This document shows, one piece after another, positions 1-276 of a DNA stretch of 4,057 nucleotides. The notes beneath the pieces were generated by a model, which saw nothing but the letters and a program-made list of their open reading frames with translations, made no database searches and was not told where the DNA came from. The stretch's first letter is position 1. The number at the start of each line of letters is the position of its first letter. The translations under genes and the position numbers were made by a program. This DNA is from Escherichia coli (lineage in GTDB: Bacteria; Pseudomonadota; Gammaproteobacteria; Enterobacterales; Enterobacteriaceae): NCBI RefSeq assembly GCF_003334305.1, contig NZ_QOWS01000051.1. The stretch is one strand, 5' to 3'.

Positions 1-276
1 CACCGGCGCGGGTGTTCTGGTCCGGTAGCTGCTGTAGGCGCGGGAAAGAATAAACGGCAGCGGGCCGGGCAGCGCAATGTCCGTCTCGCCCGGCAGCACC
101 TTTGCACCCAGCACCGGGTTCACCGGGTTGCCATAATTTGGACTGTCCTTTTTTTTAGGACACACCGAGCAGGCAACCCCCGTCGGCGCGCCTATCAGCA
201 CCCCTGCTGAACCCTGCACAATATCCAGTCCCTTGCGGGTCATGTCGCCCTGCCGCGCCGCCGGTTTTCCGCTCAT
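1..276 (-). CDS. Rhs family protein, N-terminal 92 codons (PAAR-like N-terminal region); partial, gene continues past window position 1
   Basis: Reverse-complement translation from ATG at 274-276 gives MSGKPAARQGDMTRKGLDIVQGSAGVLIGAPTGVACSVCPKKKDSPNYGNPVNPVLGAKVLPGETDIALPGPLPFILSRAYSSYRTRTPAPV with no stop to the window edge. This matches the conserved N-terminus of enterobacterial Rhs proteins (MSGKPAARQGDM..., GAPTGVACSVCP..., LPGPLPFILSR...), recalled from memory. GGGAG ribosome-binding site at 283-287 (minus), 5 nt before the ATG. GC-rich like Rhs cores. Not in the ORF track because no stop lies inside the window. Confidence 0.85.
   Translation of the reverse strand, partial: MSGKPAARQGDMTRKGLDIVQGSAGVLIGAPTGVACSVCPKKKDSPNYGNPVNPVLGAKVLPGETDIALPGPLPFILSRAYSSYRTRTPAPV

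What the first reader, a model, noticed from the sequence alone, without database searches (positions are those of the whole stretch)
1..276. Second Rhs gene begins here, giving tandem Rhs genes in one locus
The N-terminus MSGKPAARQGDM... with the GAPTGVACSVCP segment is the PAAR-like start of a full-length Rhs gene. With another Rhs 3' end at 2984..4057 on the same strand, the window is a junction between two tandem rhs genes separated by an immunity gene, an IS and small genes, a layout prone to recombination between cores.
Basis: partly seen in the sequence, partly recalled or inferred. Interest (0 to 1): 0.45.

Follow-up and report, generated by a model that had tools for sequence, protein, structure and literature searches.

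The report
Start of a broken second Rhs gene
The window does contain the start of a second Rhs toxin gene downstream of a first one in an E. coli type VI secretion locus, but in every related genome examined that second gene is an already-annotated pseudogene broken by an internal out-of-frame deletion, so this is an ordinary, known layout.

Summary
Observation confirmed. On the minus strand an ATG at 276 opens 92 stop-free codons to the window edge (MSGKPAARQGDM…GAPTGVACSVCP…), matching positions 1-89 of NCBIfam RHS_core (E=2.8e-52). A second Rhs 3' end lies at 4057..2984 on the same strand.

Interpretation only partly supported. The window is the E. coli T6SS-1 locus: tss genes, hcp, vgrG, Rhs#1, immunity, ISAs1, decayed orphan toxin/DUF3969 pair, Rhs#2, ydcD, ISAs1 x2, yafV.

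In 11 of 11 relatives inspected, Rhs#2 is 3.65-3.66 kb and RefSeq-annotated "pseudo, frameshifted". In the 60 best records a query running from the immunity-gene 3' end through the lesion matches at 100% coverage (48 as one piece). The shared lesion is an out-of-frame ~0.58-kb deletion at a 7-nt microhomology, stopping the ORF at codon 830-834. The C-terminal core, DPxGL site and toxin are left out of frame. The 80-nt junction occurs in 406 of 5,426 genomes.

Three relatives carry extra early frameshifts. The closest, A7, has one 5 nt beyond the window edge.

Rhs#2 is a mosaic: RhsG/H-type 5' end, RhsE-type 3' end plus ydcD. Intact tandem pairs exist in other strains. Tandem and decayed rhs arrays are long described. 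Low interest.

The parts
1..276 (-). 5' end (codons 1-92) of the second, downstream Rhs gene (Rhs#2); runs off the window edge
   Evidence: translation; RHS_core model positions 1-89, E=2.8e-52; identical over these 276 nt to A7, TUM1887, WY517-2, NCTC9088 and DETEC-E601
127..276 (-). Residues 1-50: short PAAR-like N-terminal segment, counterpart of Tse5-NT, the inferred VgrG-binding part
   Evidence: one GKPAARxGD…G…V.IG blade aligns to PAAR proteins, not significant; the Tse5 shell chain, which begins after the K47|P48 self-cleavage site, aligns from residue 51. PMC10684867 for Tse5-NT
1..126 (-). Residues 51-92 (PVNPVLGAKVLPGE…): start of the DUF6531 N-terminal plug of the Rhs shell
   Evidence: DUF6531 E=2.1e-9; alignment to Tse5 chain B residue 1 onward, E=2.9e-16
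149..156 (-). A8 homopolymer (codons KKK) in Rhs#2; in frame in the window, contracted to A7 in two relatives
   Evidence: for coordinates; WL164 and APEC20/16 have a 1-nt deletion here and stop at codon 52
282..288 (-). AAGGGAG ribosome-binding-site-like motif 6-12 nt upstream of the Rhs#2 ATG
   Evidence: read directly from the sequence; no sigma-70-like promoter found on this strand in 277-1400
357..697 (-). DUF3969-family gene (presumed immunity gene of the orphan toxin) split by a frameshift at the A7 run 609-615
   Evidence: the repaired conceptual translation matches Pfam DUF3969 model positions 4-96 of 106, E=2.8e-19; RefSeq annotates only the 195-nt 3' piece
700..1299 (-). Orphan Rhs toxin-tip remnant: no core, 5' end cut by ISAs1, premature TAG at 817-819
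   Evidence: translation; no Pfam or NCBIfam match; annotated 'hypothetical protein'
1299..2435 (-). ISAs1-family (H-repeat) transposase gene with an internal TGA at 2256-2258
   Evidence: NF033564 E=2.4e-94; for the stop; RefSeq 'internal stop'; intact in FHI_NMBU_10 and APEC20/16
2614..3006 (-). 130-aa ORF overlapping the Rhs#1 stop by 23 nt: presumed cognate immunity protein with a lipoprotein-like signal (…LVIGC…)
   Evidence: position and overlap; WP_001101835.1 'hypothetical protein' in all relatives; no family match
2984..4057 (-). 3' end of the vgrG-linked main Rhs gene (Rhs#1): core end, [13 protein letters not shown] at 3484-3446, C-terminal toxin domain 3445-2987
   Evidence: (Pfam RHS E=2.8e-14; YkuD E=3.4e-4); the complete gene is an intact 4,236-nt CDS in A7

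Best explanation
Window 276..1 (minus strand) is the true 5' end of a second Rhs gene. It lies ~2.7 kb downstream of the vgrG-linked main Rhs effector gene in the E. coli T6SS-1 locus (tss genes, hcp, vgrG … yafV). The 92 codons encode a ~50-residue PAAR-like N-terminal segment and the first ~40 residues of the DUF6531 plug that closes the Rhs shell. In the lineage carrying this window the gene is not functional. It is a mosaic whose first ~2.3 kb is RhsG/H-type and whose last ~1.37 kb is RhsE-type, followed by ydcD. The two parts are joined at an out-of-frame ~0.58-kb deletion formed at a 7-nt microhomology (ACGGCAG) between two YDxxGRLT repeat units. Translation from the ATG therefore ends at about codon 834. 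It gives at best a PAAR-like segment, plug and half shell, without the C-terminal plug, the aspartyl-protease/DPxGL cleavage site or a toxin. The RhsE-type toxin tip sits out of frame as a silent 'orphan' next to an intact ydcD. Shown here: the gene start, the locus context, the lesion and its distribution in relatives, and the mosaic origin. Inferred: that the unseen continuation in the source genome carries the same lesion; that ydcD still protects against RhsE-type toxins; and that recombination of the Rhs#1 core with the 3' core of Rhs#2 could re-deploy the silent tip (C-terminal displacement).
For: Gene start. Locus: (A7, 99.8% identical to the window) shows tssA…tssB, hcp, vgrG, a 4,236-nt RHS core protein, hypothetical, ISAs1 pseudogene, hypothetical, DUF3969, a 3,660-nt RHS pseudogene, ydcD, two ISAs1, yafV. 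The same layout and pseudogene flag appear. Lesion: searches give the junction GAACGGCAGAC|TGACGGAGAAGACGG at gene nt ~2293-2304, the frame change, the first stop at codon 834, and a 457-codon 3' ORF in another frame. It is present in 11 of 11 loci. The 80-nt junction query is fully matched in 406 of 5,426 genomes, always under the name RefSeq gives the pseudogenes. In the 60 best records a 4.8-kb query from the immunity-gene 3' end through ISAs1 to the junction is covered 100%, 48 as one piece. Mosaic: (nt 1-2318 are 95.4-96.6% identical to the second gene at the yncH-pptA locus and 93.9% to its own Rhs#1; nt 2294-3660 are 94.8% identical to K-12 rhsE and continue into ydcD); the 3' 1,367 nt are 99.6% identical to an intact 1,415-aa Rhs at the same position in strain 36C_1_fosA3. 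Known biology: C-terminal displacement and downstream fragments, PMC2935791; orphan re-deployment by recombination, PMC3967940 (title and abstract start only).
Against: The window stops at codon 92, so the lesion is not seen in the source sequence itself, and no database genome is 100% identical to the window (best has 7 differences). An intact Rhs#2 does exist at this same position in at least one strain (36C_1_fosA3), although with a different Rhs#1 tip. Only 11 of the 85 window-bearing genomes were inspected base by base. Some single-base frameshifts in homopolymers (A7, WL164, APEC20/16) could be assembly errors. No expression data exist.
Confidence: 0.85

Rival explanations
1. One reading: the second gene is an intact full-length Rhs effector, so the locus encodes two functional tandem Rhs toxins loaded on the same VgrG.
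For: Intact tandem pairs do exist. Strain 36C_1_fosA3 has a 4,227-nt Rhs and a 4,248-nt Rhs followed by ydcD at this same locus. EC101 has 4,209-nt and 4,263-nt Rhs genes at the yncH-pptA locus, with the same hypothetical/DUF3969/Rhs-start junction. The 92 codons in the window are open and carry a ribosome-binding-site-like motif.
Against: All 11 inspected genomes that share this window, with its L,D-transpeptidase-like Rhs#1 tip, have the deleted, frameshifted form. None of the 30 best window matches or the 60 best junction-spanning matches has a second 'RHS element core protein'. The intact example has a different Rhs#1 tip and immunity gene, so it does not contain this window.
Confidence: 0.07
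2. A nested variant of the best explanation: in the source genome the gene is additionally broken almost at once after the window edge, as in A7, so only a ~93-residue PAAR-like/plug stub plus an out-of-frame tail is encoded.
For: The closest genome by score, A7 (7 differences over 4,057 nt), has a 1-nt deletion at gene nt 281 (GGGGGTG to GGGGGG), 5 nt past the window edge, with a stop at codon 114. Three of 11 relatives have some early frameshift.
Against: TUM1887 (8 differences) and DETEC-E601 (9 differences) are almost as close and lack it. Eight of 11 relatives read through to codon 830-834. The A7 lesion sits in a G-run and may be an assembly error. The window's own A8 run is in frame.
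Confidence: 0.2
3. The truncated or silent parts are functional in their own right. Either the ~833-aa toxin-less product binds VgrG, or the 3' ORF with ydcD is expressed from internal signals as a toxin-antitoxin-like module.
For: The 833-codon ORF is intact in 8 of 11 relatives and the deletion allele persists in 406 genomes. The 457-codon 3' ORF and ydcD are 99.6% identical to the intact allele. In Salmonella Typhimurium, which has a full-length rhs and an adjacent orphan, RHS elements are reported to function as type II toxin-antitoxin modules (PMC7043789, title and abstract start only).
Against: There are no expression data. No promoter-like site was found upstream on this strand (a weak test). 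Additional independent frameshifts in 3 of 11 relatives suggest relaxed constraint on the 5' ORF. ydcD itself is frameshifted in CFIAFB20190172. Persistence is equally explained by recent common descent.
Confidence: 0.05

Closest known systems
Tandem rhs elements of E. coli: RhsE-RhsH at the yncH-pptA locus, RhsG next to vgrG (Hill laboratory; Wang, Zhao & Hill 1998, J Bacteriol 180:4102). The tandem RhsE-RhsH detail is recalled from memory because that paper is not held. The subfamilies rhsABCF / rhsDE / rhsGH are cited from Jackson et al. 2009, PMC2935791.
   Same: Two Rhs genes on one strand, separated by an AT-rich tip, an immunity gene, an H-repeat/ISAs1 element and fragments. The hypothetical/DUF3969/Rhs-start block of this window is the same block that precedes the second gene at the yncH-pptA locus (98-99% identity in the rows). 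There the gene after it is followed by what RefSeq names 'dsORF-h1', i.e. RhsH. The 5' 2.3 kb is 95-96.5% identical to that gene.
   Different: Here the block sits in the T6SS-1 (vgrG … yafV) locus rather than at yncH-pptA. The second gene is a G/H-5' :: E-3' hybrid ending in the K-12 rhsE tip plus ydcD. It carries an out-of-frame internal deletion, so only one of the two genes is intact.
Main rhs plus downstream orphan rhs-CT/immunity arrays, and C-terminal displacement (Jackson et al. 2009, PMC2935791; Koskiniemi et al. 2014, PMC3967940, S. Typhimurium)
   Same: An intact vgrG-linked gene is followed by decayed tips, immunity genes and a silent toxin tip with intact immunity (ydcD). Core homology is available for recombination: 94% over 2.3 kb and 80% over the 3' core. 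Natural variants look like recombination or decay products: a single Rhs with the RhsE tip in 13E0725, and a 5'-truncated copy in strain 1500.
   Different: Typical orphans lack the N-terminus and most of the core. This copy keeps its own start codon, PAAR-like segment and 2.3 kb of core, and is inactivated internally instead.
Pseudomonas aeruginosa Tse5 (PA2684), PDB 8CP6 (PMC10684867)
   Same: The N-terminal architecture matches: a ~47-50-residue PAAR-like N-terminal fragment followed by P-V-N-P…, the first residues of the shell's DUF6531 plug. The alignment starts exactly at the Tse5 K47|P48 cleavage product (E=2.9e-16).
   Different: It is a different species, locus and toxin. Self-cleavage at the equivalent N|P bond was not tested here. 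Residues 1-50 show no significant sequence match to any solved PAAR.

Membership tests
Rhs / YD-repeat T6SS effector (NCBIfam NF041261 'RHS element core protein') | Family-specific N-terminus (PAAR-like segment plus DUF6531 plug) | tested here: met
   RHS_core model positions 1-89, E=2.8e-52; DUF6531 E=2.1e-9; Tse5 shell alignment from residue 51
Rhs / YD-repeat T6SS effector (NCBIfam NF041261 'RHS element core protein') | Uninterrupted ~1,200-residue YD-repeat core in one reading frame (curated cutoff 2000 bits for the whole protein) | tested here: not met
   Outside the window. In 11 of 11 relatives the core has an out-of-frame ~0.58-kb deletion and the ORF stops at codon ≤834. RefSeq flags it as a pseudogene. 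It cannot be read in the source genome itself.
Rhs / YD-repeat T6SS effector (NCBIfam NF041261 'RHS element core protein') | C-terminal PxxxxDPxGL aspartyl-protease motif followed in frame by a variable toxin tip | tested here: not met
   For Rhs#2 in relatives, the RhsE-type 3' core and tip are present (94.8% to K-12 rhsE) but lie in a different frame from the start codon. Rhs#1 in the window does meet this feature.
Rhs / YD-repeat T6SS effector (NCBIfam NF041261 'RHS element core protein') | Cognate immunity gene immediately downstream | tested here: met
   ydcD overlaps the 3' end of Rhs#2 in all relatives; it is frameshifted in one
Rhs / YD-repeat T6SS effector (NCBIfam NF041261 'RHS element core protein') | Linkage to vgrG and a T6SS cluster | tested here: met
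   In A7, hcp and vgrG lie directly upstream of Rhs#1, and tssA-tssB lie upstream of those. Rhs#2 has no vgrG of its own.
PAAR domain (Pfam PF05488) | Significant match to the PAAR_motif profile, i.e. a three-blade ~90-residue cone | tested here: inconclusive
   PAAR_motif E=0.069, 13.8 bits, residues 2-29 only. One blade aligns to 4JIV_D (E=0.87) and SalCis10 (E=0.094). The segment before the plug is only ~50 residues. The Tse5 authors call the homologous Tse5-NT 'PAAR-like' (PMC10684867). No structure prediction was run.
   None is annotated in the 44-kb A7 locus. Upstream of Rhs#2 is a split DUF3969 gene. Upstream of Rhs#1 is vgrG with a 75-nt gap.
Orphan rhs-CT / immunity module | A toxin tip with core remnant lacking a translatable connection to an N-terminal delivery part, with an adjacent immunity gene | tested here: met
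   The 457-codon 3' ORF (core end plus RhsE tip) is out of frame with the start and is followed by ydcD. A second, more decayed orphan pair lies at window 357-1299.

The most novel reading that the evidence does not exclude
The deletion allele of Rhs#2 may be maintained, not merely inherited. It is found in 406 of 5,426 E. coli genomes, and its 833-codon 5' ORF is open in 8 of 11 relatives sampled. The toxin-less PAAR-like/plug/half-shell product might still dock on the shared VgrG and modulate loading of Rhs#1. Alternatively, the silent RhsE tip plus ydcD might act as an internally expressed toxin-antitoxin-like or reserve module that is re-armed by recombination with the Rhs#1 core.
Probability: 0.08. 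Interest if true: 0.4.

Novelty: already known. Interest (0 to 1): 0.12.

Why it matters
It matters little beyond correct annotation. Counting this as a second functional effector would overstate the strain's T6SS arsenal. The useful points are practical. First, a clean PAAR-like Rhs start at a contig edge does not imply a full-length gene; here the closest genome has a frameshift 5 nt beyond the window edge, and all relatives have a deletion 2.3 kb further on. Second, the E. coli T6SS-1 locus shows a natural series: intact tandem pair, deleted second copy, 5'-truncated second copy, and single fused gene. That series illustrates the already-described recombination and C-terminal-displacement dynamics of rhs loci.

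Tried and rejected
1. (7.4-kb query, 'spread' rows) was meant to separate genomes with and without the deletion. Repeated ISAs1 and Rhs matches were joined into multi-piece places, so the counts were uninformative. I replaced it with the 80-nt junction query and the 4.8-kb contiguous query.
2. The primary paper on RhsG/RhsH (Wang et al. 1998) could not be read by PubMed id or by a guessed PMC id. The tandem RhsE-RhsH statement therefore rests on memory plus my own check of the EC101 and fS58a loci.
3. PMC7216683 uses the names RhsG and RhsH for different EDL933 genes, so it was not used for naming.
4. Canonical PAAR membership was tested and not established.
5. The promoter scan found no sigma-70-like site on the minus strand upstream of Rhs#2, and the number of sites found did not exceed shuffles. 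This is a weak test.
6. The orphan toxin remnant gave no Pfam or NCBIfam match.
7. The Rhs#1 tip gave no significant PDB sequence match, so similarity to Tlde1a is not established by sequence.
8. I considered programmed frameshifting as an explanation of the two frame changes in A7 and rejected it. The first change is absent in 8 of 11 relatives, and the second is a deletion junction.
9. dN/dS on the 5' ORF was not run, because gene conversion from intact paralogues would confound it.

Full report
**1. What is in the window**

All coding features lie on the minus strand. Reading from 4057 down to 1, they are:

- **Rhs#1 3' end, 4057..2984.** This is the last 357 codons of an Rhs gene.
  - It matches NCBIfam RHS_core model positions 1053-1261 (E=1.8e-114), TIGR03696, and Pfam RHS.
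  - The core ends in [13 protein letters not shown] at 3484..3446. An AT-rich C-terminal tip follows.
- **Presumed immunity gene, 3006..2614.** A 130-aa ORF overlaps the Rhs#1 stop and has a lipoprotein-like signal.
- **ISAs1 (H-repeat) transposase gene, 2435..1299.** It carries an internal TGA at 2258-2256.
- **Toxin-tip remnant, 1299..700.** It has no core and carries a premature TAG at 819-817.
- **DUF3969 gene, 697..357.** It is split by a frameshift at an A-run. The repaired translation matches Pfam DUF3969 at E=2.8e-19.
- **The feature in question, 276..1.** An AAGGGAG motif precedes an ATG at 276, which opens 92 stop-free codons to the window edge.

G+C is 61-65% in the two core pieces and 28-49% between them.

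**2. Check of the observation**

- Both quoted peptide strings are present.
- The 92 residues match positions 1-89 of the RHS_core model at E=2.8e-52.
- Residues 49-87 match Pfam DUF6531 at E=2.1e-9. DUF6531 is the N-terminal plug of the Rhs shell.
- Against solved structures, the P. aeruginosa Tse5 shell chain aligns from residue 51, PVNPVLGAK….
  - That chain begins at P48, after the K47|P48 self-cleavage site (PMC10684867).
- The window therefore encodes a Tse5-NT-like ~50-residue head plus the first ~40 residues of the plug.
- 'PAAR-like' is the literature's word for the Tse5-NT head. By sequence it is only a single PAAR blade at non-significant E-values.

The only addition is that it lies on the minus strand.

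**3. Where it comes from**

- Megablast against 5,426 complete E. coli genomes finds the whole window (≥80% coverage) in 85 genomes. The best match is 99.8% identical, and none is identical.
- In strain A7 the locus reads:
  - tssA…tssB, hcp, vgrG;
  - Rhs#1 (4,236 nt, intact), a hypothetical gene, an ISAs1 pseudogene, a second hypothetical gene, the DUF3969 gene;
  - Rhs#2, ydcD, two ISAs1 pseudogenes, yafV.
- This is the T6SS-1 locus. From memory, it is also the map position of Hill's RhsG/vgrG element.
- No DUF1795 chaperone gene is annotated in the 44 kb.

**4. Is the second gene full-length?**

It is not in any relative that carries this window.

- *Annotation.* In 11 of 11 window-bearing genomes fetched, Rhs#2 is 3,649-3,661 nt and RefSeq flags it 'pseudo, frameshifted'.
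- *The shared lesion.* My own alignments show one lesion common to all.
  - It is a ~0.58-kb internal deletion with the junction GAACGGCAGAC|TGACGGAGAAGACGG.
  - It formed at a 7-nt microhomology (ACGGCAG) between two YDxxGRLT repeat units.
  - The two units use that heptamer in different reading frames, so the deletion shifts the frame.
- *Consequence.* Translation from the ATG stops at codon 834 (830 in one strain). The remaining 454-457 codons lie in another frame. They comprise the core end, the DPxGL site and the toxin tip.
- *Distribution.*
  - An 80-nt query centred on the junction is fully matched in 406 of 5,426 genomes.
  - A 4.8-kb query from the 3' end of the immunity gene through ISAs1 and the small genes to the junction is covered 100% in the 60 best records. 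Of these, 48 match as one piece. The 12 two-piece rows reflect IS insertions or joins to the upstream Rhs.
  - In both searches the gene carries the name 'RHS repeat-associated core domain-containing protein', as the flagged pseudogenes do.
- *Extra early lesions in three relatives.*
  - A7 lacks one base at gene nt 281, five bases beyond the window edge, and stops at codon 114.
  - WL164 and APEC20/16 have A7 instead of the window's A8 run (window 156-149) and stop at codon 52.
It is met in the closest genome but not in most. The general state is a truncated mosaic pseudogene, not a short stub.

**5. Mosaic origin and locus dynamics**

- Nt 1-2318 of Rhs#2 are 95.4-96.6% identical to the second Rhs gene at the yncH-pptA (RhsE) locus of strains EC101 and fS58a. 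They are 93.9% identical to the strain's own Rhs#1.
- Nt 2294-3660 are 94.8% identical to K-12 rhsE and continue into ydcD, yncI and ydcC homologues.
- The hypothetical/DUF3969/Rhs-start block of the window is the same block that precedes that second gene at the yncH-pptA locus. There, both tandem genes can be intact (EC101: 4,209 and 4,263 nt). Some 601 genomes hold this junction.
- At the T6SS-1 locus itself I found a series of natural variants:
  - an intact tandem pair in 36C_1_fosA3, where Rhs#2 is 4,248 nt (1,415 aa) and its 3' 1,367 nt are 99.6% identical to the pseudogene's;
  - the deleted form, which is this window's lineage;
  - a 5'-truncated, deleted form directly after ISAs1 in strain 1500;
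  - a single vgrG-linked Rhs carrying the RhsE tip and ydcD in 13E0725;
  - a large deletion fusing a truncated Rhs#1 to a tssM/IcmF remnant in WL164.
It matches the C-terminal-displacement model (PMC2935791) and the orphan re-deployment reported in Salmonella (PMC3967940, from title and abstract start).

**6. How it most likely works**

- *Shown.* The start is genuine. In relatives the gene is broken, and ydcD is usually intact.
- *Inferred.*
  - The locus fires one functional Rhs, namely Rhs#1.
  - Rhs#2 contributes at most orphan immunity through ydcD, plus a silent RhsE-type tip.
  - Recombination in the 80%-identical 3' core could re-arm that tip.
  - Recombination within the 94%-identical 5' 2.3 kb would only transfer the deletion.
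- *Rivals.* The alternatives are an intact gene in the source genome, an A7-like early stub, or a functional truncated or internally expressed product. They are scored in the rival-explanations section.

**7. Comparison with what is known, and novelty**

- Tandem rhs genes, H-repeat/ISAs1 elements between them, downstream fragments and hybrid cores were described by the Hill laboratory (recalled from memory) and by Jackson et al. 2009.
- RefSeq already annotates every part of this locus, including the pseudogene status.
- The finding is real but ordinary: already known, low interest.

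Noticed in passing
window 2987-3445 (-) and 2614-3006 (-): The C-terminal tip of Rhs#1 gives a weak Pfam YkuD (L,D-transpeptidase catalytic domain) match: E=3.4e-4, residues 238-338, with an H…GC(T)R-like motif (WLHGGG…MGCTRAQN). The overlapping downstream ORF has a lipoprotein-type signal (…LVIGC…). Both would fit a periplasm-acting, peptidoglycan-targeting toxin of the Tlde1 kind (PMC9638812). No significant PDB sequence match was found. One row (H175, strain 2013C-4974) lists an 'L,D-transpeptidase family protein' among the features under its match; its relation to this tip was not checked.
   Followed up: partly
window 357-1299 (-): A decayed orphan toxin/immunity pair. 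The toxin tip is cut at its 5' end by ISAs1 and has a premature TAG at 819-817. The DUF3969 gene is frameshifted at the A7 run 615-609; the repaired translation matches DUF3969 at E=2.8e-19. The same block, with the same frameshift in the DUF3969 gene (checked in fS58a), precedes the second Rhs at the yncH-pptA locus in other strains. It has therefore moved between loci as a unit together with the Rhs start.
   Followed up: partly
window 1299-2435 (-), stop at 2256-2258: The ISAs1/H-repeat transposase gene has a single in-frame TGA in the window and in most relatives. It is annotated as intact (WP_033882866.1) in FHI_NMBU_10 and APEC20/16.
   Followed up: partly
window 149-156 (-): An A8 run encoding KKK inside the Rhs#2 head appears to be a recurrent frameshift site. 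Two relatives (WL164 and APEC20/16) have A7 there. I could not tell real slippage from assembly error.
   Followed up: partly
L003 (WL164) 7425-10074: In strain WL164 the T6SS-1 core cluster is largely deleted. A truncated Rhs#1 that lacks its N-terminus abuts an IcmF/TssM C-terminal remnant, yet the window region downstream is retained.
   Followed up: no
L017 (13E0725) 6994-11709; L015 (strain 1500) 10922-13397; L016 (36C_1_fosA3) 9304-13551: Three other states of the same locus. 13E0725 has a single vgrG-linked Rhs with the RhsE tip and ydcD. Strain 1500 has a 5'-truncated, deleted Rhs#2 directly after ISAs1. 36C_1_fosA3 has an intact 1,415-aa Rhs#2. Together they form a recombination and decay series.
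   Followed up: partly
L007 (K-12 MG1655) 3891-8953: The K-12 rhsE pseudogene with ydcD, yncI and ydcC at yncH-pptA is 94.8% identical to the 3' part of Rhs#2 and is in the same gene order as the genes downstream of it at the T6SS-1 locus (rhs 3' end, ydcD, an antisense yncO-like ORF, two ISAs1 genes). The same RhsE-tip module therefore sits at two different chromosomal loci in different strains.
   Followed up: partly
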